Shown here piece after piece: positions 2,869 through 15,630 of a DNA stretch of 15,630 bases (its first letter is position 1; every line of letters begins with the position of its first letter). A model generated the notes under the pieces. The model was not told where the DNA came from, ran no database searches, and saw only the letters and a list, made by a program, of their open reading frames with translations. The stretch is from IMG/VR virus record IMGVR_UViG_2534681702_000002, one strand, 5' to 3'. The translations under genes were made by a program, and so were the position numbers. The stretch is from a virus (lineage: Duplodnaviria; Heunggongvirae; Uroviricota; Caudoviricetes).

Positions 2869-3951
2869 TTAGAACTGATACACCAGACCTACAGCGACGA
2901 TGTCGTCGGTATCAATACCAGCTGTTTTGGTAAACTTACTATCGTCAATTAAGTTGATTTTGTAATCAACAAAAGTGGACATGTTTTTATTAAAGTAGTA
3001 AGTAGCACCGACATCGACATACTTGACTAAGTCTCGGTCACCATGAACACCAAGGTCTTTACCTTTTGACTGAAGGTAAGCAACAGATGGTCGCAGACCG
3101 AAGTCAAACTGATATTGTGCTACTGCTTCAAAGTTTTGTGCTTTGTTTGCAATATGGTTATTACCAAAAACGGTCATATTCTGAGTTTCAGAATATGTGG
3201 TAGCCAGATAGATATTGTTCGCATCATATTTCAGGCCTGCAGCCCATACTTCCGCATTTTTGCCGGAGGCATTGAATTTGCTCTTACCATAGGCGACCTG
3301 ACCGTCAGTGCGATCTGATTTAGCATAGGTTGCACCCACGCCGAATCCTTCATACTCATAAGTAGTGGAGAAACCGAAACCATCACCATTGGCTTCAGTT
3401 ACGTCAGTGCGGTCATTTTTACCCTGATACTGAGCAGCAAAGTTCAGGCCATCGACCAGACCAAAGAAGTCGTTGTTACGATAGGTTGCAACACCAGTGG
3501 TGCGACCAGTCATGAACACATCTGTTTGGGTCCAGGTATCGCCACCGAATTCTGGCAGAACGTCAGTCCACGCACCGATGTCGTATGCTACACCGTAGTT
3601 ACGGCCGTAATCGATTGAGCCGTAGTCACCGAATTTCAGGCCTGCAAATGCAAGACGGGTTTTGTCTTTGGAGGAACCTTGAGATTCAGCGCGGTTGCCT
3701 TTGAATTCATATTCCCACTGACCGAAACCAGTCAGTTGATCGTTGATTTGGGTTTCACCTTTGAAGCCAAGACGGGCATAAGTAGTATCACCATCATCTG
3801 CATCGTTAGAGGAAAAGTAGTGCTTGGCATTAACTTTCCCGTACAGATCCAGCTTGTTACTGTCTTTATTATAAATTTCAGCTGCCTGAGCAGACATCGT
3901 CATCAGTACTGATGCAGCTACAGCAGAAATTGCCACTGTTAATTTTTTCAT
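2869..3951 (-). CDS. nmpC: Outer-membrane porin, OmpC/Lc family (NmpC-like), 360 aa, apparently intact
   Basis: Signal peptide [23 protein letters not shown] followed by [16 protein letters not shown] and a C-terminal ...AVGLVYQF beta-barrel terminus. This is the classic general-porin signature and matches recalled NmpC/Lc. Confidence 0.85.
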
Positions 3952-4539
3952 CGTGAGCCCTTTTTTTTGAACTATTATTAAAAAATGATGTCACTGCGCG
4001 ATAAATATTCATCTAATCAATGTGATTATTTCAAGATGTAAGTTTTAGTTTCTCATTTAATTTGTGAAGTAGATCTCTATTTTTATCTGAACTTTTTCTA
4101 TCGAAACCTATTTATGGCTCTTATTTGAACAAAAATAAACCTATTAGCTAATTTATATTAATGGCTGTTATTTATGGGGGGGCTATAATTCGGTGGTTTA
4201 ATTTAAATCAACTAAAAATAACGCCGGAAATTATTTATTGGTTATTTGTTGAGGTTTTCTTATATATTTGTGGTGGTGTTTTGAACACTCGGTAGCATTC
4301 TCATAAATATCATTCAGTGGTTTACGTACGTAAAAAATTGGTTATGCTGTTAAGAGTGGTTACTTCGTCACACAGCTTAAACCCGCCGTCGAGCTGGTTT
4401 TTCCATTTTTTGAGTCTCGATATTAGCTGATAACTCAATACCTGAGTTATTCACTGACTCCGAGTCTGTTACGTTTCTGCTTTTTTGCGATACGTTGTAT
4501 TCCCTCAATTTACACCCGCTTTGTCTGCGAGGTGGGGTT

Positions 4540-4755
4540 ATGAAATCCATGGATAAGTTAACAACGGGTGTCGCCTATGGCACCTCAGCAGGTAGTGCCG
4601 GTTACTGGTTTTTACAGCTGCTCGATAAAGTCACGCCCTCACAGTGGGCAGCAATAGGTGTGCTGGGTAGCCTGGTATTTGGCCTGCTGACGTACCTGAC
4701 AAACCTTTATTTCAAGATTAAAGAAGATAAGCGCAAGGCTGCGAGAGGTGAATAA
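4540..4755 (+). CDS. essD: Class II holin (pinholin), S21-like, 71 aa
   Basis: [71 protein letters not shown] matches recalled phage 21 S / EssD. Real start is the ATG at 4540, inside the longer track ORF. Confidence 0.85.
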
Positions 4756-5252
4756 TGCCTCCATAATTACGAAAAGCCGTTGCTGCTGCTATTGGTGGCG
4801 GAGCAATTGCTATAGCATCAGTGTTAATCACTGGCCCAAGTGGTAACGATGGTCTGGAAGGTGTCAGCTACATACCATACAAAGATATTGTTGGTGTATG
4901 GACTGTATGTCACGGGCATACAGGAAAAGACATCATGCTCGGTAAAACGTATACCAAAGCAGAATGCAAAGCCCTCCTGAATAAAGACCTTGCCACGGTC
5001 GCCAGACAAATTAACCCGTACATAAAAGTTGATATACCGGAAACAACGCGCGGCGCTCTTTACTCGTTCGTTTACAACGTGGGCGCTGGCAATTTCAGAA
5101 CATCGACGCTTCTTCGCAAAATAAACCAGGGCGATATCAAAGGCGCATGTGATCAGCTACGTCGCTGGACATATGCTGGCGGTAAGCAATGGAAAGGTCT
5201 CATGACTCGTCGTGAGATTGAGCGTGAAATCTGTTTGTGGGGTCAGCAATGA
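4755..5252 (+). pseudogene. rrrD: SAR-endolysin (R21/RrrD-type lysozyme) with an in-frame TAA at codon 4; only a GTG at 4821 could restart, giving a 143-aa product without the N-terminal SAR domain
   Basis: The ATG at 4755..4757 overlaps the holin stop (TAATG coupling) and is followed by CCT CCA TAA. The same frame continues as [32 protein letters not shown]... (SAR hydrophobic segment) into the lysozyme domain. Recalled RrrD starts [12 protein letters not shown]..., so codon 4 TCA has become TAA. Confidence 0.6.
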
Positions 5253-5710
5253 ACAGAGTAACCGCGATTATCTCCGCTCTGGTTATCTGCATCATCGTCT
5301 GCCTGTCATGGGCTGTTAATCATTACCGTGATAACGCCATTACCTACAAAGCCCAGCGCGACAAAAATGCCAGAGAACTGAAGCTGGCGAACGCGGCAAT
5401 TACTGACATGCAGATGCGCCAGCGTGATGTTGCTGCACTGGATGAAAAATACACGAAGGAGTTAGCTAATGCGAAAGCTGAAAATGATGCTCTGCGTGAT
5501 GATGTTGCCGCTGGTCGTCGTCGGTTGCACATCAAAGCAGTCTGTCAGTCAGTGCGTGAAGCCACCACCGCCTCCGGCGTGGATAATGCAGCCTCCCCCC
5601 GACTGGCAGACACCGCTGAACGGGATTATTTCACCCTCAGAGAGAGGCTGATCACTATGCAAAAACAACTGGAAGGAACCCAGAAGTATATTAATGAGCA
5701 GTGCAGATAG
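5249..5710 (+). CDS. rzpD: Spanin inner-membrane subunit Rz (153 aa)
   Basis: ATG at 5249 overlaps the rrrD stop. N-terminal transmembrane segment followed by coiled-coil sequence. Matches recalled RzpD. Confidence 0.85.
5469..5651 (+). CDS. rzoD: Spanin outer-membrane lipoprotein Rz1 (60 aa), embedded in rz in the +1 frame
   Basis: Lipoprotein signal with lipobox LVVVGC, followed by a proline-rich mature region ([15 protein letters not shown]). Entirely nested within rzpD. Confidence 0.8.
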
Positions 5711-5741
5711 AGCTGCCCATATCGATGGGCAACTCATGCAA

Positions 5742-6035
5742 TTATTGTGAGCAATACACACGCGCTTCCAGCGGAGTATAAATGCCTAAAGTAATAAAAC
5801 CGAGCAATCCATTTACGAATGTTTGCTGGGTTTCTGTTTTAACAACATTTTCTGCGCCGCCACAAATTTTGGCTGCATCAACAGTTTTCTCCTGTCCAAT
5901 TCCCGAAACGAAGAAGTGATGGGTGATGGTTTCCTTTGGTGTTACTGCTGTCGGTTTGTTTCCAACAGTAAACGTCTGTTGAGCACATCCTGTAATAAGC
6001 ATTGCCAGAGCGGCAGAAAACAACATTTTTTTCAT
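5742..6035 (-). CDS. borD: Bor lipoprotein (serum-resistance family), 97 aa
   Basis: Real start is MKKMLFSAALAMLITGC..., inside the longer track ORF. Lipobox LITGC. Matches recalled lambda Bor / BorD. Confidence 0.85.
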   Translation of the reverse strand: MKKMLFSAALAMLITGCAQQTFTVGNKPTAVTPKETITHHFFVSGIGQEKTVDAAKICGGAENVVKTETQQTFVNGLLGFITLGIYTPLEARVYCSQ

Positions 6036-6394
6036 CTTATTATCCTGCATTGTTAAAAACGGCAGAATCCTATGTGACAACAATTAAACGATAGTTAAAT
6101 GGATTGATGAAAATTAAAACTATATAGGTGGATGCTCAGCCTATTGGAGGAGGGGGGCACTCAGAATCCTGTGGAATGAAATAAACCGCTCTTTCTGTCC
6201 ATTACCCTTTTAGCTGCGCTGTATCGTCGCCGTATTCCCGCATTAACCATGACCGTAGCCCGACGGGGAATTCCTTCTGCGTGAGTGTGCGGGAATAATC
6301 AAAAACGATGCACACCGGGTTTTACTGTGCTGACAGACGCAGGGTTACCCTCATAGTCGCTTTTCCGGTGCGATGGTGGAAGAAACCGGGATGT

Positions 6395-6589
6395 TTATTC
6401 ATCATCACTCTGGATTGATGTATATGCTCTCTTTTCTGACGTTAGTCTCCGACGGCAGGCTTCAATGACCCAGGCTGAGAAATTCCCAGACCCTTTTTGC
6501 TCAAGAGCGATGTTAATTTGTTCAATCATTTGGTTAGGAAAGCGGATGTTGCGGGTTGTTGTTCTGCGGGTTCTGTTCTTCGTTGACAT
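6395..6589 (-). CDS. ylcI: Small basic protein (64 aa), YlcI-like (DUF3950-type); possible ribbon-helix-helix DNA binder
   Basis: Arginine-rich N-terminus MSTKNRTRRTTTRNIRFPNQMIEQINIALEQKGSGNFSAWVIEACRRRL. Sits immediately upstream of cos/nohD, where I recall ylcI in K-12. The assignment is from memory. Confidence 0.45.
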   Translation of the reverse strand: MSTKNRTRRTTTRNIRFPNQMIEQINIALEQKGSGNFSAWVIEACRRRLTSEKRAYTSIQSDDE

Positions 6590-6749
6590 GAGGTTGCCCC
6601 GTATTCAGTGTCGCTGATTTGTATTGTCTGAAGTTGTTTTTACGTTAAGTTGATGCAGATCAATTAATACGATACCTGCGTCATAATTGATTATTTGACG
6701 TGGTTTGATGGCGTAGATGCACGTTGTGACATGTAGATGATAATTATTA

Positions 6750-6977
6750 TCATTTTGCGGGTCCTTTCCGGCGATCCGACAGGTTACGGGGCGGCGACCT
6801 CGCGGGTTTTCGCTATTTATGAAAATTTTCCGGTTTAAGGCATTTCCGTTCTTCTTCGTCGTAACTTAATGTTTTTATTTAAAATACCCCCTGAAAAGAA
6901 AGGAAACGACAGGTGCTGAAAACGAGCTTTTGGGCCTCTGTCGTTTCCTTTCTCTGTTTTTGGCCGTGGAATGAACA
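6750..6977. other. Lambda-type cos site (cosQ-cosN-cosB) with lambda right-end-like flank
   Basis: GGGCGGCGACCT, the lambda 12-nt cohesive-end sequence, lies at 6789..6800. It is preceded by ...CCGACAGGTTACG (lambda right terminus) and followed by CGCGGGTTTTCGCTATTTATGAAAATTTTCCGGTTTAAGG... (lambda left-end cosB region), running up to the Nu1 start. Recognition is against the lambda sequence as I remember it. Confidence 0.8.
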
Positions 6978-7523
6978 ATGGAAGTCAACAAAAAGCAGCT
7001 GGCTGACATTTTCGGTGCGAGTATCCGTACCATTCAGAACTGGCAGGAACAGGGAATGCCCGTTCTGCGAGGCGGTGGCAAGGGTAATGAGGTGCTTTAT
7101 GACTCTGCCGCCGTTATAAGATGGTATGCCGAAAGGGATGCTGAAATTGAGAACGAAAAGCTGCGCCGGGAAGTTGAAGAACTGCGGCAGGCCAGCGAGA
7201 CAGATCTCCAGCCAGGGACTATTGAGTACGAACGCCATCGACTTACGCGTGCGCAGGCCGACGCACAGGAGCTGAAAAATGCCAGAGACTCCGCTGAAGT
7301 GGTGGAAACCGCATTCTGTACTTTCGTGCTGTCGCGGATCGCAGGTGAAATTGCCAGTATTCTCGACGGGATCCCCCTGTCGGTGCAGCGGCGTTTTCCG
7401 GAACTGGAAAACCGACATGTTGATTTCCTGAAACGGGATATCATCAAAGCCATGAACAAAGCAGCCGCGCTGGATGAACTGATACCGGGGTTGCTGAGTG
7501 AATATATCGAACAGTCAGGTTAA
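6978..7523 (+). CDS. nohD: Terminase small subunit Nu1 (181 aa)
   Basis: MEVNKKQLADIFGASIRTIQNWQEQGMPVLRGGGKGNEVLYDSAAVIRWYAERD... is near-identical to recalled lambda Nu1 across its length. Confidence 0.92.
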   Translation: MEVNKKQLADIFGASIRTIQNWQEQGMPVLRGGGKGNEVLYDSAAVIRWYAERDAEIENEKLRREVEELRQASETDLQPGTIEYERHRLTRAQADAQELKNARDSAEVVETAFCTFVLSRIAGEIASILDGIPLSVQRRFPELENRHVDFLKRDIIKAMNKAAALDELIPGLLSEYIEQSG

Positions 7524-7713
7524 CAGGCTGCGGCATTTTGTCCGCGCCGGGCTTCGCTCACTGTTCAGGCCGGAGCCACAGACCGCCGTTGAATGGGCGG
7601 ATGCTAATTACTATCTCCCGAAAGAATCCGCATACCAGGAAGGGCGCTGGGAAACACTGCCCTTTCAGCGGGCCATCATGAATGCGATGGGCAGCGACTA
7701 TAACTGTTATTAA
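7498..7713 (+). pseudogene. Terminase large subunit (gpA) N-terminal fragment, about 66 native codons then divergence and a stop
   Basis: MNISNSQVNRLRHFVRAGLRSLFRPEPQTAVEWADANYYLPKESAYQEGRWETLPFQRAIMNAMGSDY matches the recalled lambda gpA N-terminus. Downstream of about 7700 the sequence is unrelated (NCY*). The start overlaps the Nu1 end as in lambda. Confidence 0.85.
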
Positions 7714-8626
7714 TGAAAATCCGACAGCACAAGGATATCAGGCAATTGCTGTAAACACGAATGATGCTTACACCTGCCCGGCAGGTTCTTATACGACGAT
7801 ATCGTGTCTGACGAAAAGTGATAATTCCCGGTGTCGTGCAAGGTTCGGAAAAATGTCTGATAATGGTGCGTTTGTTTTTCATTCAGATGCAGTTCTGGAT
7901 CCTGTTACGGGAAATGTTGTTCATGGAAATAATGTGACGGTGACGGCAGAAAGAGTCGGTGAATGGTGGTTGTTTACCGCCACTCTTTTTGCAGATGCGG
8001 AAATGATAATCAGCTCAAGATTTGAAATCCTGGCGATGCCTGGAATCAGTATTATCCCCAATGGCTCTACGTTAGATATTGCGATGCCTCAGGCGGAGAT
8101 TGGGTCGTACAGGACGTCATTTATCATTACTGAAGGGGCTCCTGGCACTCGCTCCAGCGACATGGTGACAATACCTGTAAGAAACAATATTCACCGATTA
8201 CCATTCAGTGCTCTTGTTGAAGTTAATAAAAACTGGGATATCCCTCCCAGCAAATCACCATTAATCTTTAATGTTAAAGATTATCAGGAAAATGGTCTGT
8301 TCACGCATGGATTCCGTGGTAATAATTTCTCTGATGCCGGTTCTCCTTTTATTTCTATGGGAGGGTGTAATAAATATGTGGCAACAACCCAGAGGAAAAT
8401 CATTTCAGGCTTCCGTTGTGGCGCTGATGGAGATGTTCAGGCCGTATGTAATGGTGAATTATCTGTTGCGGCAAAAACAACATGGACTTCAATTGTTCCA
8501 CGGGCAGTATTGCGAATTGGAGGGCAGGGCACTAATGGGGAGTATCATCTTTTTGGTCATATCCGTAATCTGCGTATCTGGCATAAAGAATTAACTGATG
8601 CGCAAATGGGGGAGAGTATTAAATGA
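7682..8626 (+). CDS. Chimeric ORF (314 aa): C-terminal fragment of a phage fibre / receptor-binding-type protein with a ConA/LamG-like C-terminus; its first 7 codons are terminase-A sequence read out of frame
   Basis: C-terminal ...NGEYHLFGHIRNLRIWHKELTDAQMGESIK resembles the end of LamG/concanavalin-like lectin domains. The ATG at 7682 has no convincing Shine-Dalgarno and sits inside the gpA remnant. Domain call is pattern recognition only. Confidence 0.4.
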   Translation: MRWAATITVINENPTAQGYQAIAVNTNDAYTCPAGSYTTISCLTKSDNSRCRARFGKMSDNGAFVFHSDAVLDPVTGNVVHGNNVTVTAERVGEWWLFTATLFADAEMIISSRFEILAMPGISIIPNGSTLDIAMPQAEIGSYRTSFIITEGAPGTRSSDMVTIPVRNNIHRLPFSALVEVNKNWDIPPSKSPLIFNVKDYQENGLFTHGFRGNNFSDAGSPFISMGGCNKYVATTQRKIISGFRCGADGDVQAVCNGELSVAAKTTWTSIVPRAVLRIGGQGTNGEYHLFGHIRNLRIWHKELTDAQMGESIK

Positions 8627-8904
8627 AAGATTTAACACTCAAATTTGCAGACAGGGCCGACTTTTCGGCCTTTATGGAGAGTATTGGCTATTATGATGAC
8701 GAGTCGATGCAGGATGATATTCTTATTGACGTGATAGGTAACGTGTACAAAGAAACCGGAGAACTGACTGAAGATGGCGAACCGGTATGTGTTAAGGAAG
8801 ACGGATATTTTGTAAACGTGCGCATCATTAATGATGTAAAAAAATCGTCAATATTCGATAAATACGCGGTTGTTGTTGAGCATCAACTTCGTGGCTGGAT
8901 GTGA
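8623..8904 (+). CDS. Hypothetical acidic protein (93 aa)
   Basis: ATG overlaps the stop of the preceding ORF (AAATGA). No recognisable motif. Separated from the next ORF, in the same frame, by one TGA plus 9 nt. Confidence 0.45.
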   Translation: MKDLTLKFADRADFSAFMESIGYYDDESMQDDILIDVIGNVYKETGELTEDGEPVCVKEDGYFVNVRIINDVKKSSIFDKYAVVVEHQLRGWM

Positions 8905-8913
8905 GGGAGACAA

Positions 8914-9618
8914 ATGGCTACATCGACAGTAATTCCAGGAGATATCACCACGCTAAAGGGAGATGTCAGTAAAACTAAGGAAGATATTTCCTCAATTAAC
9001 GGAAAAGTATCAACGCTTCAGACTGATATGACCAGTGCAAAGCAGGATATCAGCACCAGATACACAAAAACTGAAGTTGATAATAAGCTGAAAAACAAAC
9101 TGGAAGTGAACGATCTGGAAAGCGGTCGTTATGGTGGAGATTTTTACCCGTTGACTGGCCGTGAAGCGTTTTATATGTGGGGATTGGGCACGACTACAGC
9201 GGCGGCAAACCTTTATCTTAATCCTGACCCTGCAATTTCGTCTGTACTGCGGTCAACATCGTCTATTCGCTATAAACATTCAGTAGAGACGATAGATTCA
9301 GAGCACGCCGATCTCATTTTCAGGATGCGCCCTGTGTGGTACAGGTCGCAATACGAAAATGACAGGCGTGACTGGGGATTCTACGGATTGATTGCCGAGG
9401 AAGTAGGAGAAATTGCCCCTCAGTTTGTACACTGGCGACCAGCTAACGAAGATGATGCTCCTGAAGCTATTTCCAGCAATGGCCTTGTTGCCGAAGGTGT
9501 AATGTACGAACGTCTGGTTGTTCCACTGATTCACCATATCCAGAAGCTGACTGAAAGAGTTGATGAACTTGAGTCAGAATTAAAGTTGTTATCCGTTTCC
9601 CGAAGCGATATCGGATAA
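8914..9618 (+). CDS. Tail-fibre-like protein (234 aa): N-terminal coiled coil plus C-terminal intramolecular-chaperone (peptidase S74-type) domain
   Basis: GAGGGAG Shine-Dalgarno before the ATG. C-terminal segment ...RMRPVWYRSQ...GFYGLIAEEVGEIAPQFVHW...GVMYERLVVPLIHHIQKLTERVDELESELK fits the conserved pattern of fibre/tailspike auto-cleaving chaperone domains. N-terminal 70 residues are heptad-like (KGDVSKTKEDISSINGKVSTLQTDMTSAKQDIS). Confidence 0.6.
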   Translation: MATSTVIPGDITTLKGDVSKTKEDISSINGKVSTLQTDMTSAKQDISTRYTKTEVDNKLKNKLEVNDLESGRYGGDFYPLTGREAFYMWGLGTTTAAANLYLNPDPAISSVLRSTSSIRYKHSVETIDSEHADLIFRMRPVWYRSQYENDRRDWGFYGLIAEEVGEIAPQFVHWRPANEDDAPEAISSNGLVAEGVMYERLVVPLIHHIQKLTERVDELESELKLLSVSRSDIG

Positions 9619-9628
9619 AGGAGGAGTA

Positions 9629-9922
9629 ATGGATATAACACCTTTCCTTCATGCGCTTTGTGCTGTGGCTGCGCAGCTACTGATTGGTCTTTTTACCGGG
9701 AACTGGGCTTACGGGGCGATAGCCGGTTGTACGTTCTTCATTGCGCGTGAACACACCCAGGCAGAATATCGCTGGATCGAAATGTTCGGGCATGGCAAGC
9801 GAATGAATATGCCGTGGTGGGGCGGTTTTGATACACGTGCATGGGATGTGGCAAGCCTGATGGATTTTGCTGTGCCGGTGGTGGCGTGTCTGCTGGTCTG
9901 GCTGTTGGTTAATCGTGGGTGA
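9629..9922 (+). CDS. Small membrane protein (97 aa) with two predicted transmembrane helices
   Basis: Strong AGGAGG Shine-Dalgarno 6 nt before the ATG. Hydrophobic stretches at about residues 8-32 and 77-94, with a Trp/Arg-rich loop between them. No recognisable family. Confidence 0.55.
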   Translation: MDITPFLHALCAVAAQLLIGLFTGNWAYGAIAGCTFFIAREHTQAEYRWIEMFGHGKRMNMPWWGGFDTRAWDVASLMDFAVPVVACLLVWLLVNRG

Positions 9923-9932
9923 AAAAAGGTGA

Positions 9933-10052
9933 GCTGTATATGCAACGGAGGAAGAAAACTCGTTGCTGGAAGCCTGGAAAAAGTATCGGGTGCTGCTAAA
10001 CCGTGTGGACACTTCCGTAGCACCAGATATCGAGTGGCTTATTCAACCATAA
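9933..10052 (+). pseudogene. tfaX: 3' remnant of a tail-fibre-assembly (Tfa) gene, about 39 codons, no start codon
   Basis: Open frame translates ...[36 protein letters not shown], matching the recalled C-terminus of lambda-type Tfa proteins. Position directly upstream of appY matches K-12 tfaX. Confidence 0.55.
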
Positions 10053-10596: not shown

Positions 10597-11339
10597 ATGG
10601 ATTATGTTTGCTCCGTAGTTTTCATCTGTCAATCATTTGATTTAATTATAAACAGGAGAGTTATCTCGTTCAAAAAAAATTCATTGTTTATTGTAAGCGA
10701 CAAAATTAGAAGGGAGTTACCAGTATGCCCCTCTAAACTAAGAATTGTTGATATAGATAAGAAAACATGTTTATCCTTTTTTATCGACGTGAATAATGAG
10801 CTGCCTGGCAAATTTACTCTTGATAAGAATGGCTATATTGCTGAAGAGGAACCTCCATTATCGCTTGTTTTTTCTCTGTTTGAAGGGATTAAAATAGCAG
10901 ACTCACACTCCCTTTGGTTAAAAGAAAGACTATGTATATCCTTACTTGCCATGTTCAAAAAACGCGAAAGTGTAAATTCATTTATACTAACAAATATAAA
11001 TACATTCACCTGTAAAATTACTGGAATAATCAGTTTTAATATTGAGCGGCAATGGCATTTAAAAGATATTGCGGAATTGATTTATACGAGTGAAAGTTTA
11101 ATAAAAAAAGATTAAGGGATGAAGGAACGTCATTTACTGAAATATTGAGAGATACTAGGATGAGGTATGCAAAAAAACTCATAACTTCAAACTCTTATTC
11201 TATCAATGTCGTAGCCCAGAAATGTGGCTATAACAGTACTTCATATTTCATATGTGCATTTAAAGATTATTATGGTGTCACGCCATCTCATTATTTTGAG
11301 AAAATAATCGGCGTCACAGATGGAATAAACAGGTAATGA
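10597..11339 (+). pseudogene. appY: AraC-family regulator AppY, disrupted by a 1-bp frameshift at an A7 run (11103..11109) and by an IS1 insertion 12 nt before its native stop
   Basis: The 172-aa ORF (10597..11115) and the 63-aa ORF (11145..11336) are in different frames, yet together form a continuous AraC-type C-terminal helix-turn-helix domain (...[19 protein letters not shown] / [25 protein letters not shown]...[18 protein letters not shown]). The native last codons (AAA ACA ATT GAC TGA) lie at 12882..12896, beyond the IS1 pair. Confidence 0.85.
11323..11331. repeat. 9-bp target-site duplication GAATAAACA, left copy, of the outer IS1
   Basis: Identical 9-mer immediately flanks both ends of the outer IS1 (11323..11331 and 12876..12884). 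Confidence 0.85.
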
Positions 11340-11378
11340 CTCCAACTTATTGATAGTGTTTTAGGTAGTGACTCCAAC

Positions 11379-11882
11379 TTACTGATAGTGTTTTATGTTC
11401 AGATAATGCCCGATGACCTTGTCATGCAGCTCCACCGATTTTGAGAACGACAGTGACTTCCGTCCCAGCCTTGCCAGATGTTGTCTCAGATTCAGATTAT
11501 GTCGCTCAATGCGCTGAGTGTAACGCTTGCTGATAACGTGCAGCTTTCCCTTCAGGCGTGATTCATACAGCGGCCAGCCATCCGTCATCCATACCACGAC
11601 CTCAAAGGCCGACAGCAGGCTCAGAAGACGCGCCAGTGTGGCCAGAGTGCGTTCACCGAAAACGTGCGCCACAACTGTCCTCCGTATCCTGTCATACGCG
11701 TAAAACAGCCAGCGCTGACGTGATTTAGCACCGACGTAGCCCCACTGTTCGTCCATTTCCGCGCAGACAATCACATCACTGCCCGGTTGTATGCGCGAGG
11801 TTACCGACTGCGGCCTGAGTTTTTTAAGTGACGTAAAACCGTGTTGAGGCCAACGCCCATAATGCGGGCAGTTGCCCGGCAT
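11379..11882 (-). CDS. insB: IS1 InsB reading frame (167 aa), expressed as the InsAB' transposase by -1 frameshifting; inner copy
   Basis: Translation matches IS1 InsB. Overlaps insA in the -1 frame. Identical at protein level to the copy at 14634..15137. Confidence 0.9.
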
Positions 11883-12076
11883 CCAACGCCATTCATGGCC
11901 ATATCAATGATTTTCTGGTGCGTACCGGGTTGAGAAGCGGTGTAAGTGAACTGCAGTTGCCATGTTTTACGGCAGTGAGAGCAGAGATAGCGCTGATGTC
12001 CGGCGGTGCTTTTGCCGTTACGCACCACCCCGTCAGTAGCTGAACAGGAGGGACAGCTGATAGAAACAGAAGCCAC
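11801..12076 (-). CDS. insA: IS1 InsA (91 aa), inner copy
   Basis: [43 protein letters not shown]... is the zinc-finger plus HTH InsA. The A6C frameshift motif (TTAAAAAAC) lies at its 3' end. Confidence 0.9.
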
Positions 12077-12104
12077 TGGAGCACCTCAAAAACACCATCA
12101 TACA

Positions 12105-12626
12105 CTAAATCAGTAAGTTGGCAGCATCACCGTGTTTTATGTTCAGATAATGCCCGATGACTTTGTCATGCAGCTCCACCGATTTTGAGAACGACAGCGA
12201 CTTCCGTCCCAGCCGTGCCAGGTGCTGCCTCAGATTCAGGTTATGCCGCTCAATTCGCTGCGTATATCGCTTGCTGATTGCGTGCAGCTTTCCCTTCAGG
12301 CGGGATTCATACAGCGGCCAGCCATCCGTCATCCATATCACCACGTCAAAGGGTGACAGCAGGCTCATAAGACGCCCCAGCGTCGCCATAGTGCGTTCAC
12401 CGAATACGTGCGCAACAACCGTCTTCCGGAGCCTGTCATACGCGTAAAACAGCCAGCGCTGGCGCGATTTAGCCCCGACGTATCCCCACTGTTCGTCCAT
12501 TTCCGCGCAGACGATGACGTCACTGCCCGGCTGTATGCGCGAGGTTACCGACTGCGGCCTGAGTTTTTTAAATGGCGGAAAATCGTGTTGAGGCCAACGC
12601 CCATAATGCGGGCGGTTGCCCGGCAT
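12105..12626 (-). CDS. insB: IS1 InsB reading frame, outer copy; C-terminus altered (…[11 protein letters not shown]) because the ORF runs into the inserted inner IS1
   Basis: About 90% identical to the inner InsB. The last two native codons (YQ) are replaced by read-through into the inner IS1 end, extending the ORF to 173 aa. Confidence 0.8.
12132..12139. repeat. 8-bp target-site duplication GTGTTTTA, right copy, of the inner IS1 (left copy at 11356..11363)
   Basis: Direct 8-bp repeat, itself part of the outer IS1 sequence, flanking the inner 768-bp element. Confidence 0.85.
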
Positions 12627-12820
12627 CCAACGCCATTCATGGCCATATCAATGATTTTCTGGTGCGTACCGGGTTGAGAAGCGGTGTAAGTGAACTGCAG
12701 TTGCCATGTTTTACGGCAGTGAGAGCAGAGATAGCGCTGATGTCCGGCAGTGCTTTTGCCGTTACGCACCACCCCGTCAGTAGCTGAACAGGAGGGACAG
12801 CTGATAGAAACAGAAGCCAC
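12545..12820 (-). CDS. insA: IS1 InsA (91 aa), outer copy
   Basis: InsA-like. Differs from the inner copy at two residues (…GLNTIFRHL versus …GLNTVLRHL). Confidence 0.9.
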
Positions 12821-12875
12821 TGGAGCACCTCAAAAACACCATCATACACTAAATCAGTAAGTTGGCAGCATCACC

Positions 12876-12884
12876 GAATAAACA
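12876..12884. repeat. 9-bp target-site duplication GAATAAACA, right copy, of the outer IS1; also restores the native appY 3' end
   Basis: Same 9-mer as 11323..11331. Reading across it gives ...GGA ATA AAC AAA ACA ATT GAC TGA (G I N K T I D *). Confidence 0.85.
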
Positions 12885-13103
12885 AAACAATTGACTGATA
12901 ATGTTTATTACAAGTTGTCTACATGTTAATTATAATATTATACAGCGTTTTTTTGATGTGATATTCTGGAACCATTAATTTGTAATTGGGTTGCTGTCGC
13001 CTATTTTATACATGCTATAATTGATGGTTTTCTATGTGATTTAGTTAATAACCTTCTGGGTTTATTTTAAGGGTTAATTGTTACATTGAAATGGCTAGTT
13101 ATT

Positions 13104-13146: not shown

Positions 13147-14100
13147 TTAAAATGTGTACTTAAGACCAGCAGTAGTGATGAAGTTATAGTTTTCTATACC
13201 TGCTCCATTTTTGCTGTAGTCTGAAGTGTTATTATTGTGATCATAAAGTGAAGTATTACCTTTTTTATTCGTAACCCGATTCCATGCGCCTTCAACATAA
13301 ACTTTTGCGTTAGGTGTGACGTAATAACCTGCATTGACTGCAACAGAATAGTAATTTTGGTCTTTGACCTTACTGCGATAAGTGATTCTTTTTCCCGGGT
13401 CATAGTGTTCATCGTTATCAGATGATTCCACCCAGCCGCTGTATTTAAATGTGCCACCGAGTTCAAAATCTTCATAACGATAACTTCCAGTCAAGCCAAT
13501 GTAGGGCATTTTAAAACGTTGTTTGTAGCCGATTGCTCTTTCTCCATTCGGGAAGGAGCCGATATCATCTCTGAATCCCTCCTCAGAACTGTAGATATAG
13601 GAACCACCTCTGGCTGTAAAGCTATAACGGCTTTCCTGATATCCGGCCATGAGTCCCAGGCGGTAATTGGGTTCGTTGAGGAGCCAACCTTTGATATTCA
13701 GATCAAATTCGTTGGCATAATTGAGTTGTGTATCAGGGTGTCTACTTTCATCCGTCCAGGTTCCGGGGTTACTGGAATCCATCCAGTCCTGATCGACCAT
13801 ATTGCCACCTCGGCTGCCGAGAGTTGTCCAGCCAGCAGCCCCGATAGATATCTGGGGCATCAAATCCCAATTAATTGCACCTTTAATAATTGCAGCGTTA
13901 TTGAATTTCCAATCGAGTTGACTGACTTTTCGGCCTCCTTCTTCGGCTAGATAAACACGCTCTTTTGTTTTTCCGCTCAGAGTTCCAAAACTAATGTCCG
14001 CATTTATGTTGTCAGGAGTAAACGATATAGTCTCGGTAGAAGCAAAAGAGCTGATCGCAATAGGGGTTGTCAGGACTATTCCCAGAAGTTTCGCCCGCAT
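13147..14100 (-). CDS. ompT: Outer-membrane protease OmpT (omptin, protease VII), 317 aa
   Basis: MRAKLLGIVLTTPIAISSFASTETISFTPDNINADISFGTLSGKTKERVYLAEEGGRKVSQLDWKFNNAAIIKGAINWDL... matches recalled OmpT over the full length. Ends with the beta-barrel terminus ...AGLKYTF. Confidence 0.95.
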   Translation of the reverse strand: MRAKLLGIVLTTPIAISSFASTETISFTPDNINADISFGTLSGKTKERVYLAEEGGRKVSQLDWKFNNAAIIKGAINWDLMPQISIGAAGWTTLGSRGGNMVDQDWMDSSNPGTWTDESRHPDTQLNYANEFDLNIKGWLLNEPNYRLGLMAGYQESRYSFTARGGSYIYSSEEGFRDDIGSFPNGERAIGYKQRFKMPYIGLTGSYRYEDFELGGTFKYSGWVESSDNDEHYDPGKRITYRSKVKDQNYYSVAVNAGYYVTPNAKVYVEGAWNRVTNKKGNTSLYDHNNNTSDYSKNGAGIENYNFITTAGLKYTF

Positions 14101-14439
14101 AAAAGTTCTCCATTCAATCGTTTTAATGATTGAATATGTATTTTTTATATCTAACTTAATGAGTCAATTACATATTGCTCCACTGTTTATATTTTGTTTA
14201 GTATTGAATGATTATCACAATGCGCTATCTGTTTTTGGTTTAATTATCTGTTATTGTTTCATATTGCGGTTTTACTGTGTGGTTTTTTTATGCTTTTGTG
14301 GTGCTTTTATCTATTTAAGTGCCATGCCTTTAGAGGCATATAAGCGAAAATAGCATGAGGTTTATCCTCAATTACTATGTTTTTGGTGATGCTGCCAACT
14401 TACTGATTTAGTGTATGATGGTGTTTTTGAGGTGCTCCA

Positions 14440-14715
14440 GTGGCTTCTGTTTCTATCAGCTGTCCCTCCTGTTCAGCTACTGACGGGGTGGTGCGTAACG
14501 GCAAAAGCACCGCCGGACATCAGCGCTATCTCTGCTCTCACTGCCGTAAAACATGGCAACTGCAGTTCACTTACACCGCTTCTCAACCCGGTACGCACCA
14601 GAAAATCATTGATATGGCCATGAATGGCGTTGGATGCCGGGCAACTGCCCGCATTATGGGCGTTGGCCTCAACACGGTTTTACGTCACTTAAAAAACTCA
14701 GGCCGCAGTCGGTAA
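14440..14715 (+). CDS. insA: IS1 InsA (91 aa), third copy
   Basis: Protein identical to InsA of the inner IS1. Confidence 0.9.
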
Positions 14716-15137
14716 CCTCGCGCATACAACCGGGCAGTGATGTGATTGTCTGCGCGGAAATGGACGAACAGTGGGGCTACGTCGGTGCTAAATCACGTCA
14801 GCGCTGGCTGTTTTACGCGTATGACAGGATACGGAGGACAGTTGTGGCGCACGTTTTCGGTGAACGCACTCTGGCCACACTGGCGCGTCTTCTGAGCCTG
14901 CTGTCGGCCTTTGAGGTCGTGGTATGGATGACGGATGGCTGGCCGCTGTATGAATCACGCCTGAAGGGAAAGCTGCACGTTATCAGCAAGCGTTACACTC
15001 AGCGCATTGAGCGACATAATCTGAATCTGAGACAACATCTGGCAAGGCTGGGACGGAAGTCACTGTCGTTCTCAAAATCGGTGGAGCTGCATGACAAGGT
15101 CATCGGGCATTATCTGAACATAAAACACTATCAGTAA
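14634..15137 (+). CDS. insB: IS1 InsB reading frame (167 aa), third copy
   Basis: Protein identical to InsB of the inner IS1. A6C frameshift motif TTAAAAAACTC at about 14690. Confidence 0.9.
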
Positions 15138-15154
15138 GTTGGAGTCACTACCCG

Positions 15155-15630
15155 TTAGCGGATATTTGTTTGCCTCCTTTTTTTTACCCAGCATACCCCA
15201 TCCCAACAATTTGAATTAAATGTCGTAAAATTGATAACTTCTTTACCTTTTGAAAAATATGTTATTGGGCAAAACTCATCTCCACTTAATGGTTTAAAGC
15301 TGGTTATTATGTCACAATTTAATTGTTGTGATAGTGATTGAGCGATGAAATCAGTTAGAGATGGAAGATACTTGCTTTCAATCGATGTTGTTGATGTGCC
15401 GAAATCAACTTCATAAGAAAAATCAATCTTCGCTAGTAATTCAATATATTCTGCATCTTTGTCAATAAAAGATGTGTCATAAGTAATGTTTTTTTATACT
15501 CATTTACATCAAAGTAGTCATATTTTAATATCGAAAAGTCAATGTCTAGAGCATTTACAAACTTATAAATACTATCGGTTAGTTTACTTTTATCTTTATA
15601 CTCTATGAGTATACTTGATTTGGTGATCAT
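15155..15630 (-). pseudogene. Low-GC gene of unknown function, frameshifted at an A7 run (plus-strand T7 at 15489..15495); stop codon 2 bp from the IS1 end
   Basis: The minus-strand ATG sits exactly at the window edge, so the true N-terminus may lie beyond it. Frame a reads MITKSS...DYFDVNEYKK and stops at 15433. The adjacent frame continues NITYDTSFIDKDAEYIELLAKIDFSYEVDFG...CWVKKRRQTNIR* for about 113 codons with no Met, so it is a continuation rather than a separate gene. Identity unknown. Confidence 0.4.

What the first reader, a model, noticed from the sequence alone, without database searches (positions are those of the whole stretch)
15155..15630. Low-GC gene at the window edge is frameshifted at an A7 run and ends 2 bp from the IS1
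Two adjacent minus-strand frames together encode about 165 residues of one protein. The second frame has no Met in about 113 codons, so it is a continuation. The switch maps to the run at 15489..15495. I do not recognise the protein, and its base composition differs sharply from the neighbouring IS1. It is the second homopolymer frameshift in this window after appY, which raises the possibility of systematic homopolymer sequencing errors rather than real pseudogenes.
Basis: seen in the sequence. Interest (0 to 1): 0.45.

Follow-up and report, generated by a model that had tools for sequence, protein, structure and literature searches.

The report
Broken orphan Rhs immunity gene
The low-GC gene at the window edge is the decayed leftover of an antidote (immunity) gene from an E. 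coli Rhs toxin cassette, broken by a real one-base loss in a run of A's that hundreds of E. coli genomes share; this is an ordinary kind of gene decay.

Summary
On the minus strand an ORF starts at the ATG at 15630. It shifts frame at the A7 run (15489-15495) and stops at 15155-15157, 2 bp from a complete IS1 (14385-15152).

The sequencing-error suspicion does not hold here. The same 478 bp, A7 included, is ≥99% identical in 567 of 5,426 complete E. coli genomes.

Adding one A gives a 158-aa protein. That exact sequence, with A8, occurs in a minority of E. coli draft assemblies. Homologues of 151-158 aa occur in Cronobacter, Kosakonia, Enterobacter and Superficieibacter. The start at 15630 is the true N-terminus.

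In the window's lineage only the last 187 bp of the toxin gene survive, so this is a displaced orphan module in decay. Relative to ETEC strain FORC_031, an IS1-flush 8.2-kb deletion (envY to ISAs1) put ompT beside it.

This is a new member of a known kind, of low interest.

The parts
15155..15630 (-). Frameshifted orphan rhsI (Rhs immunity) pseudogene. With A8 it would encode 158 aa plus a stop.
   Evidence: Frames. Intact homologues of 151-158 aa. The exact A8 product is in the collection. The gene lies 2-4 bp downstream of Rhs toxin tips.
15433..15630 (-). 5' reading frame as it is now translated: 65 codons, of which 48 are native and 17 are out of frame, followed by a stop codon.
   Evidence: This 65-aa product has been called on at least 1000 contigs.
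15489..15495 (-). A7 run (T7 on the + strand), the site of the 1-nt loss. Intact alleles have A8.
15155..15488 (-). 3' reading frame: 111 codons with no Met, encoding native residues 49-158, then the native TAA at 15155-15157.
   Evidence: The stop codon and the C-terminal tail ...WVKKRRQTNIR are the same as in the intact allele P0001.
15178..15185 (-). Second homopolymer, A8 on the coding strand, near the 3' end. It is in frame here, and it is miscalled as A6 in assembly G4/9.
15153..15154 (.). 2-bp native spacer between the stop codon and the IS1 end.
   Evidence: The 478-bp query that begins at 15153 matches IS1-free genomes at 100% from its first base.
14385..15152 (+). Complete IS1 (768 bp), 100% identical to the copy at 11364-12131. 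It has no target-site duplication: TATGTTTTT on the left, CGTTAGCGG on the right.
   Evidence: Its right junction is shared with ETEC genomes.
13593..14384 (.). ompT 5' part and 284 bp upstream of ompT, ending at the deletion junction flush with the left end of IS1.
   Evidence: 100% identical to FORC_031 locus L003 1-792. L003 793-9000 (envY, ybcH, nfrA, nfrB, partial ISAs1) is absent from the window.

Best explanation
The segment is a decaying orphan immunity gene (rhsI) of an Rhs polymorphic-toxin module. It belongs to the E. coli rhs locus between nfrB and cusS.

**Intact form.** A 158-aa cytoplasmic protein is encoded 2-4 bp after the C-terminal toxin tip of an Rhs protein. It would protect the cell by binding and blocking that tip. 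The tip is a ~150-aa nuclease of the PD-(D/E)xK fold, whose closest solved relative is the Burkholderia pseudomallei 1026b CdiA-CT tRNase.

**History in the window's lineage.**
1. A different Rhs tip displaced this module. Only the last 187 bp of the toxin gene, plus the immunity gene, remained downstream as an orphan.
2. One A was lost from an A8 run at codons 46-48. Translation now ends after 65 codons, so most of the fold is missing.
3. An IS1 sits 2 bp past the stop codon.
4. An IS1-flush deletion of 8.2 kb brought ompT next to it.

**Shown:** the frameshift, the intact allele and homologues, the gene order, allele frequencies, the toxin remnant, and the deletion relative to FORC_031.

**Inferred:** the immunity function (from position and context), the toxin activity (from a structure model), and the loss of function of the A7 allele.
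For: **Frameshift anatomy.**

**A7 is real and common.**
- 575 of 5,426 complete genomes hold the 478 bp, and 567 of them at ≥99% identity.
- No complete genome has A8 followed by C.
- The truncated 65-aa product appears on at least 1000 contigs.

**The ancestral state was A8.**
- Intact homologues of 151-158 aa occur in five genera and align through the site.
- The intact E. coli allele reads TAT AAA AAA AAT ATT.
- The exact A8 reconstruction is on 32 contigs.
- A8+C was read in 7 of the 8 places fetched for it; L018 has A8+T.

**Immunity assignment.**
- In Cronobacter the gene starts 2 bp after a 503-aa orphan Rhs.
- In E. coli MS 69-1 it starts 4 bp after the main Rhs, at the same cusS-vgrG-rhs...ISAs1-nfrB locus.
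- In Kosakonia it sits in a same-strand array with Barstar-type genes.

**Orphan status.**
- Only 7 genomes hold toxin plus immunity. About 570 hold only query positions 266-941, which is 187 bp of the toxin 3' end plus the immunity gene.
- The remnant encodes ...KNVNKGVGLVGDNGIVLVIR...PFWRF, matching the toxin C-terminus.

**Toxin class.**
- There are 60 representative relatives. Their matched stretches lie at the C-terminal end of proteins of many different lengths, and one relative carries a PT-HINT domain upstream.
- E51 and K90 are invariant and D79 is nearly invariant.
- The AF2 model has pLDDT 89.
- 4G6V is a PD-(D/E)XK tRNase acting on tRNA-Ala (PMC9086364).

**Locus.** nfrB/cusS is rhs locus 4 of Jackson et al. 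2009 (PMC2935791).

**Deletion.**, with the annotation.
Against: - No experiment links this protein to immunity.
- It matches no Pfam, NCBIfam or PADLOC model.
- It matches no solved structure by sequence.
- The toxin's Pfam CdiA_C match is below threshold: 14 bits against a 26.6-bit cut-off.
- The downstream frame carries no further disabling mutation. The alleles differ by only 6 substitutions, so relaxed selection cannot be demonstrated.
- A8 alleles do exist, so for the window's own strain only its reads can prove A7.
- The source strain of the window is not among the complete genomes. No record covers the ompT-IS1-rhsI junction, so the deletion junction itself is unreplicated.
Confidence: 0.82

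Rival explanations
1. The gene is intact (A8) in the source strain, and the A7 in this window is a homopolymer sequencing or assembly error.
For: - A8+C alleles of otherwise identical sequence exist in draft assemblies.
- The window also has A7 in appY where close relatives have A8.
- Other assemblies of this region do show homopolymer miscalls. G4/9 has 20 gap columns and 0 substitutions against L016. 2011EL-1370-2 is 1 nt short in both regions.
Against: - A7 is the state in the 100%-identical copies of hundreds of complete genomes produced by many laboratories and platforms.
- FORC_031 and ten other ETEC records (H82-H91) match the window at 100% over IS1 plus the gene, 1,246 bp.
- No complete genome shows A8+C.
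Confidence: 0.05
2. The A7 allele is still expressed or switchable. Either RNA-polymerase or ribosomal -1 slippage on the A run restores some full-length immunity protein, or the A7/A8 tract acts as a reversible on/off (phase-variable) switch for orphan immunity.
For: - A -1 slip after the second AAA, or one extra A in the mRNA, would give exactly the wild-type sequence. This follows directly from the sequence.
- Both A7 and A8 occur on several different locus backgrounds.
- The downstream frame is still free of stops.
- A second poly-A tract, in the ORF just upstream, is also polymorphic: A6 or A7.
Against: - The zero-frame register is U AAA AAA C, not a canonical X XXY YYZ heptamer. This is read from the sequence.
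- There is no stable downstream structure: -6.8 kcal/mol, z = 0.27.
- No strong SD-like element lies upstream.
- All homologues and the intact allele are single ORFs, so the shift is not a conserved feature.
- By established knowledge, tracts of 7-8 A slip at low rates in mismatch-repair-proficient E. coli.
- Sequence divergence is too small to show selection either way.
Confidence: 0.06
3. The protein is not an immunity protein. It could be another Rhs-associated accessory gene, or an unrelated small gene that happens to travel with rhs tips.
For: - No family, motif or significant fold match defines its function.
- In one metagenomic contig it lies away from any Rhs gene.
Against: - Its position, same strand and 2-4 bp after the toxin tip, is the same in E. 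coli and Cronobacter.
- The toxin is homologous in the two genera.
- It occurs in an array with Barstar-like immunity genes.
- Known chaperone or adaptor genes lie upstream of rhs. Here that is the DcrB-like gene, annotated.
Confidence: 0.05

Closest known systems
Orphan rhs-CT/rhsI modules left by C-terminal displacement in Enterobacteriaceae (Jackson et al. 2009, PMC2935791; Poole et al. 2011, PMC3150448)
   Same: - It lies downstream of a full-length, vgrG-linked rhs gene that carries a different tip.
- It is low in G+C.
- It keeps only a 3' piece of the toxin gene together with the following small gene.
- It is further degraded by a frameshift. Jackson et al. describe this for Serratia rhs fragments.
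- The locus (nfrB/cusS) is their E. coli rhs locus 4.
   Different: - This particular toxin/immunity pair has no Pfam or NCBIfam model.
- None of the four accessions searched appears in any paper of the library.
- The toxin remnant is very short (187 bp, no rhs core), so it cannot be reactivated by simple recombination with the main rhs gene.
CdiA-CT/CdiI of Burkholderia pseudomallei 1026b (PDB 4G6V), a PD-(D/E)XK tRNase and its immunity protein
   Same: - The spacing of the conserved acidic residues is E51-D79-D/E88, that is 28 then 9 residues. In 4G6V it is E187-D214-D223, that is 27 then 9.
   Different: - Delivery is by an Rhs/T6SS protein, not by CdiA/CdiB.
- No significant sequence match to the PDB was found.
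- The Pfam CdiA_C match is below threshold.
- The immunity protein is 158 aa, against 103 in the solved chain. Foldseek did not recover that chain.
- The substrate is untested.
IS1-promoted adjacent deletions (classical IS1 behaviour; stated from established knowledge, not tested here)
   Same: - One IS1 end, next to the immunity gene, is fixed and shared with ETEC relatives.
- The DNA on the other side is missing, flush with the IS1 end.
- There is no target-site duplication.
   Different: - The event is inferred only by comparison with FORC_031.
- No complete genome has the ompT-IS1-rhsI junction.
Frameshift sites on A runs that are decoded on purpose (IS1 insA-insB' at A6C; dnaX A AAA AAG)
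   Same: An A run lies at the junction of two frames. A -1 shift would give the full-length product.
   Different: - The slippery register is not canonical.
- There is no stimulatory structure.
- The two-frame layout is not conserved in homologues.

Membership tests
Rhs immunity gene (rhsI) of a polymorphic toxin module | Encoded on the same strand immediately downstream of an Rhs C-terminal toxin-coding region | tested here: met
   - Cronobacter L011: Rhs at 6174-7685, the gene at 7688-8152.
- E. coli MS 69-1 L015: Rhs at 4593-9452, the gene at 9457-9933.
- L009: toxin stop, then AAAAT, then ATG.
Rhs immunity gene (rhsI) of a polymorphic toxin module | Travels with one particular toxin tip type across taxa | tested here: met
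   The Rhs tips upstream of the gene in E. coli and in Cronobacter are homologous, 80% and 84% identical to P0027. The immunity proteins are 58% identical.
Rhs immunity gene (rhsI) of a polymorphic toxin module | Binds and neutralises its cognate toxin | not testable with these tools
   This needs co-expression or binding assays.
Orphan (displaced) rhs-CT/rhsI module | Lies distal to a full-length rhs gene that carries a different tip, and retains only a 3' fragment of its own toxin gene | tested here: met
   - In ATCC 8739 and FORC_031 the order is Rhs (1505 aa, different tip), an 86-aa ORF, a 95-aa ORF, the 187-bp toxin remnant, then this gene.
- The window itself ends at the ATG, so the remnant lies outside it.
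CdiA-CT(1026b)-type PD-(D/E)xK tRNase toxin / CdiI pair | Toxin has the PD-(D/E)xK fold with conserved E, D, D/E and K | tested here: met
   - AF2 model pLDDT 89.
- E51 and K90 are invariant, and D79 is nearly invariant.
- This is evidence from a model, not from a solved structure.
CdiA-CT(1026b)-type PD-(D/E)xK tRNase toxin / CdiI pair | Sequence membership of Pfam CdiA_C (PF18451) | tested here: not met
   E = 0.06, 14 bits, against a cut-off of 26.6 bits. Ten remote relatives gave no hit either.
CdiA-CT(1026b)-type PD-(D/E)xK tRNase toxin / CdiI pair | Immunity protein shares the CdiI(1026b) fold | tested here: inconclusive
   - Foldseek gives nothing significant.
- The model's pLDDT is only 76.
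CdiA-CT(1026b)-type PD-(D/E)xK tRNase toxin / CdiI pair | Cleaves tRNA (tRNA-Ala acceptor stem) | not testable with these tools
   The activity of 4G6V is taken from PMC9086364. There is no assay here.
Programmed -1 frameshift / transcriptional slippage gene | Slippery motif in the right register plus a stimulatory element | tested here: not met
   - The register is U AAA AAA C.
- The 79 nt downstream fold at -6.8 kcal/mol, z = 0.27.
Programmed -1 frameshift / transcriptional slippage gene | Two-frame organisation conserved among homologues | tested here: not met
   All 16 aligned homologues are single ORFs.
Phase-variable (contingency) locus | Both in-frame and out-of-frame tract lengths occur in otherwise identical alleles | tested here: met
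   A7+C and A8+C alleles both exist.
Phase-variable (contingency) locus | Within-strain switching at high frequency | not testable with these tools
   This needs read-level or colony-level data. A tract of 7-8 A is short for high-rate slippage in E. coli (established knowledge).

The most novel reading that the evidence does not exclude
The A7/A8 tract in this orphan immunity gene, and the A6/A7 tract in the ORF just upstream of it, are not simple decay. On this reading they are reversible slippage switches, or sites of low-level transcriptional or ribosomal slippage. E. coli lineages could then keep a silent but quickly recoverable stock of immunity against a rare Rhs tRNase toxin.
Probability: 0.06. 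Interest if true: 0.5.

Novelty: new member of a known kind. Interest (0 to 1): 0.2.

Why it matters
**Annotation.**
- About one in ten complete E. coli genomes carries this unannotated pseudogene. PGAP lists nothing under it in the rows examined.
- In the error-prone assembly G4/9, PGAP called 'hypothetical proteins' whose sequences are artefacts.
- The intact form gives a name and a likely partner to a small 'hypothetical protein' family in Enterobacteriaceae. It would be the immunity protein for an Rhs-borne relative of the Burkholderia CdiA-CT 1026b tRNase.

**For the scan.** The result separates a real, population-wide homopolymer frameshift (this gene) from one that may be private or an error (appY).

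**Genome structure.** An IS1-flush 8.2-kb deletion explains why ompT lies next to rhs-locus DNA.

None of this would surprise a specialist.

Tried and rejected
**Searches that gave nothing useful.**
- Pfam, NCBIfam and PADLOC scans of the reconstructed protein and of the toxin found nothing above threshold.
- Sequence and profile searches of the PDB gave only chance-level hits for the immunity protein and for the toxin.
- A Foldseek search of the immunity model gave no significant match.
- A literature search for four accessions of this family found no papers.

**A misleading lead.**
- G4/9, a complete genome with 'intact' ORFs, first looked like the ancestral state.
- It has 0 substitutions but 20 indel columns against an Illumina draft of the same lineage. 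Its A5 and A6 runs are therefore miscalls of A8 and A8.

**A wasted search.** I searched 12050-12900 believing it to be appY. It is IS1. appY is at about 10597-11346.

**Programmed frameshifting.** I considered it and found no canonical heptamer, no downstream structure and no conservation of the two-frame layout.

**Source strain.** I looked for a genome holding the window's ompT-IS1-rhsI junction. None of the 5,426 complete genomes covers it.

Full report
**1. Observation**

On the minus strand an ORF begins at the ATG that ends the window (15630). It runs 65 codons to a stop at 15433-15435.

A second minus-strand frame is open for 111 codons without a Met, down to TAA at 15155-15157. The two frames can only be joined at the run of seven T (+) / A (-) at 15489-15495.

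A complete 768-bp IS1 occupies 14385-15152. Two bases separate it from the stop codon.

G+C is 29.8% for the gene and 52.6% for the IS1. An open frame of 111 codons at this composition has a chance probability of about 6e-5.

**2. Sequencing error or real?**

The 478 bp from 15153 to 15630 occur in 575 of 5,426 complete E. coli genomes, and at ≥99% identity in 567 of them. Most copies are 100% identical, A7 included. Carriers include ATCC 8739, E. coli C, E. coli B and many ETEC strains.

I repeated the search with a query in which the run was lengthened to eight. No complete genome matched at 100%; the best hits all lacked one base.

The truncated 65-aa product has been called on at least 1000 contigs in the large protein collection. 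A7 is therefore a real, common allele and not an artefact of this assembly.

The window's appY is different. It has A7 at 11103-11109, while its closest relatives have A8 and an intact gene. That site could be a private mutation or an error.

**3. What the gene was**

Adding one A gives a 158-aa protein. It has no Pfam, NCBIfam or PADLOC match.

It does have intact homologues of 151-158 aa in E. coli, Cronobacter, Kosakonia, Enterobacter and Superficieibacter. The closest is P0001 at 97% identity, in a cluster of 339 members.

- The alignment runs straight through the frameshift site as EYKK(N/R)I.
- All 16 full-length homologues begin (M/V)ITK, so 15630 is the true start.
- The C-terminal tail and the stop codon are native.

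An intact E. coli allele reads TAT AAA AAA AAT ATT (A8 then T). My exact reconstruction (A8 then C) is itself in the collection, on 32 contigs. I read A8+C directly in seven draft assemblies. The frameshift is therefore the loss of one A from an A8 run, and both states segregate in E. coli.

**4. Context and function**

In the native arrangement (ATCC 8739, FORC_031) the gene order is:

- cusS, vgrG, a DcrB-like gene, an Rhs gene of 1505 aa
- an 86-aa ORF and a 95-aa ORF
- this gene
- ISAs1, nfrB, nfrA, ybcH, envY, ompT

This is rhs locus 4 (nfrB/cusS) of Jackson et al. 2009 (PMC2935791).

In E. coli MS 69-1 the same locus has a main Rhs whose C-terminal tip is followed 4 bp later by the intact 158-aa gene. 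In Cronobacter sakazakii the homologue starts 2 bp after a 503-aa orphan Rhs with a homologous tip. In Kosakonia it lies in a same-strand array of small genes that includes Barstar-type immunity genes.

This is the position and behaviour of an Rhs immunity gene (rhsI). The function itself is inferred, not shown.

**5. Orphan status**

Only 7 complete genomes carry the full toxin tip plus the immunity gene. About 570 match only from position 266 of a 941-bp query. That covers the last 187 bp of the toxin gene plus the immunity gene.

The remnant still encodes ...KNVNKGVGLVGDNGIVLVIRSSNSKNTLEEFHEFFGNFKPNNSTARVEVIDQSVLEPFWRF. This is the C-terminus of the toxin.

The module was therefore displaced by another Rhs tip and left as an orphan. 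This is the process described by Jackson et al. 2009 and Poole et al. 2011 (PMC3150448). The window stops at the ATG, so the remnant lies just outside it.

**6. The cognate toxin**

An exhaustive HMMER search found 60 representative relatives of the ~150-aa tip. Their matched stretches lie at the C-terminal end of proteins of many different lengths. One relative has a pre-toxin HINT domain upstream, and none has a Pfam toxin model.

E51 and K90 are invariant and D79 is nearly invariant. The AlphaFold model is confident, with pLDDT 89.

The module therefore works like the 1026b pair. It is not shown to belong to that family by sequence.

**7. IS1 and the neighbourhood**

The window matches FORC_031 at 100% over two stretches:

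- 13593-14384, which is ompT and 284 bp upstream of it
- 14385-15630, which is IS1 plus the gene

It lacks the 8,208 bp that separate these in FORC_031: envY, ybcH, nfrA, nfrB and a partial ISAs1. The break is flush with the left end of IS1, and there is no target-site duplication.

The right IS1 junction is shared with FORC_031 and ten other ETEC records. This fits an IS1-promoted adjacent deletion from a pre-existing IS1. That is an inference from classical IS1 behaviour. No complete genome contains the ompT-IS1-rhsI junction.

The stop codon and the two bases after it are native sequence. IS1 therefore did not truncate the gene.

**8. Alternatives**

*Sequencing error in this window.* This is unlikely for the reasons given in section 2.

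*Programmed frameshifting or slippage.* A -1 slip, or one extra A in the mRNA, would restore the wild-type protein. Against it:

- the register (U AAA AAA C) is not canonical
- the 79 nt downstream do not fold better than shuffles, z = 0.27
- no homologue shares the two-frame layout

*A phase-variable switch.* This cannot be excluded. A7 and A8 both occur on several locus backgrounds. A second poly-A tract in the upstream ORF is also polymorphic, A6 or A7. Tracts this short slip rarely in E. coli, however, and the data show no more than polymorphism.

*The 'intact' ORFs of the complete genome G4/9.* These come from assembly errors. Against a draft of the same lineage G4/9 has 0 substitutions but 20 indel columns in 3.7 kb.

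**9. Verdict**

This is a real, widespread frameshift in an orphan Rhs immunity gene. It is a textbook case of decay after C-terminal displacement, placed next to ompT by IS1 activity.

The only new content is the annotation of an unnamed toxin/immunity pair as an Rhs-borne relative of the CdiA-CT 1026b tRNase system. It is a new member of a known kind, of low interest.

Noticed in passing
window 11340-12875: One IS1 is nested inside another. A complete IS1 (11364-12131, 100% identical to the copy at 14385-15152) is inserted into a second, 94%-identical IS1 (11340-11363 plus 12132-12875). It is flanked by an 8-bp duplication, GTGTTTTA. ompT therefore lies between inverted IS1 copies.
   Followed up: partly
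window 11103-11109 (appY, about 10597-11346, + strand): appY is frameshifted at an A7 run. FORC_031 and most ETEC relatives have A8 and an intact appY. Only assembly 2011EL-1370-2 shares A7, and it is annotated 'frameshifted'. Unlike the rhsI run, this one could be a private mutation or an assembly error.
   Followed up: partly
window 14384/14385 junction; L003 793-9000: Relative to ETEC FORC_031 the window lacks 8,208 bp (envY, ybcH, nfrA, nfrB pseudogene, partial ISAs1). The break is flush with the left end of IS1. No complete E. coli genome has this junction.
   Followed up: yes
L001 6479-7059 (ATCC 8739), just beyond the window's right edge: The ORF upstream of the immunity gene also has a polymorphic poly-A tract. 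A7 gives a 95-aa product. A6 (L016, L019, L023 and the G4/9 lineage) gives a 190-aa ORF that reads on into the toxin 3' remnant in frame. Whether this chimeric ORF means anything is unknown.
   Followed up: partly
L002 (E. coli G4/9, NZ_CP060073.1) 2998-4052: This complete genome has 20 indel columns and no substitutions against an Illumina draft of the same lineage. Even so, PGAP called two 'hypothetical proteins' from it (WP_151298822.1 and WP_186998267.1). Their sequences are partly artefacts of homopolymer miscalls.
   Followed up: yes
L015 4593-9452 (E. coli MS 69-1): In one of the seven complete genomes that still have the cognate toxin tip, the main Rhs gene is itself annotated as a pseudogene (internal stop). 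The toxin may therefore be rare and partly inactive in E. coli.
   Followed up: no
L004-L007 (Kosakonia), about 6300-16400 in L004: Downstream of ssb there is a long same-strand array of small ORFs. It holds the homologue of this gene, two Barstar-like genes and a Cys_rich_CPCC gene, with no adjacent toxin. It looks like an island of stockpiled immunity genes.
   Followed up: no
L001 7349-11866 and 7056-7316: The current main Rhs of the ATCC 8739 lineage ends only about 35 residues after the DPLGL motif, with three consecutive stop codons. An 86-aa ORF follows. The present tip looks unusually short or split.
   Followed up: no
window 15155-15630 and the matching places in complete genomes: In every row examined except G4/9, RefSeq/PGAP annotates nothing (not even a pseudogene) under this sequence.
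   Followed up: yes
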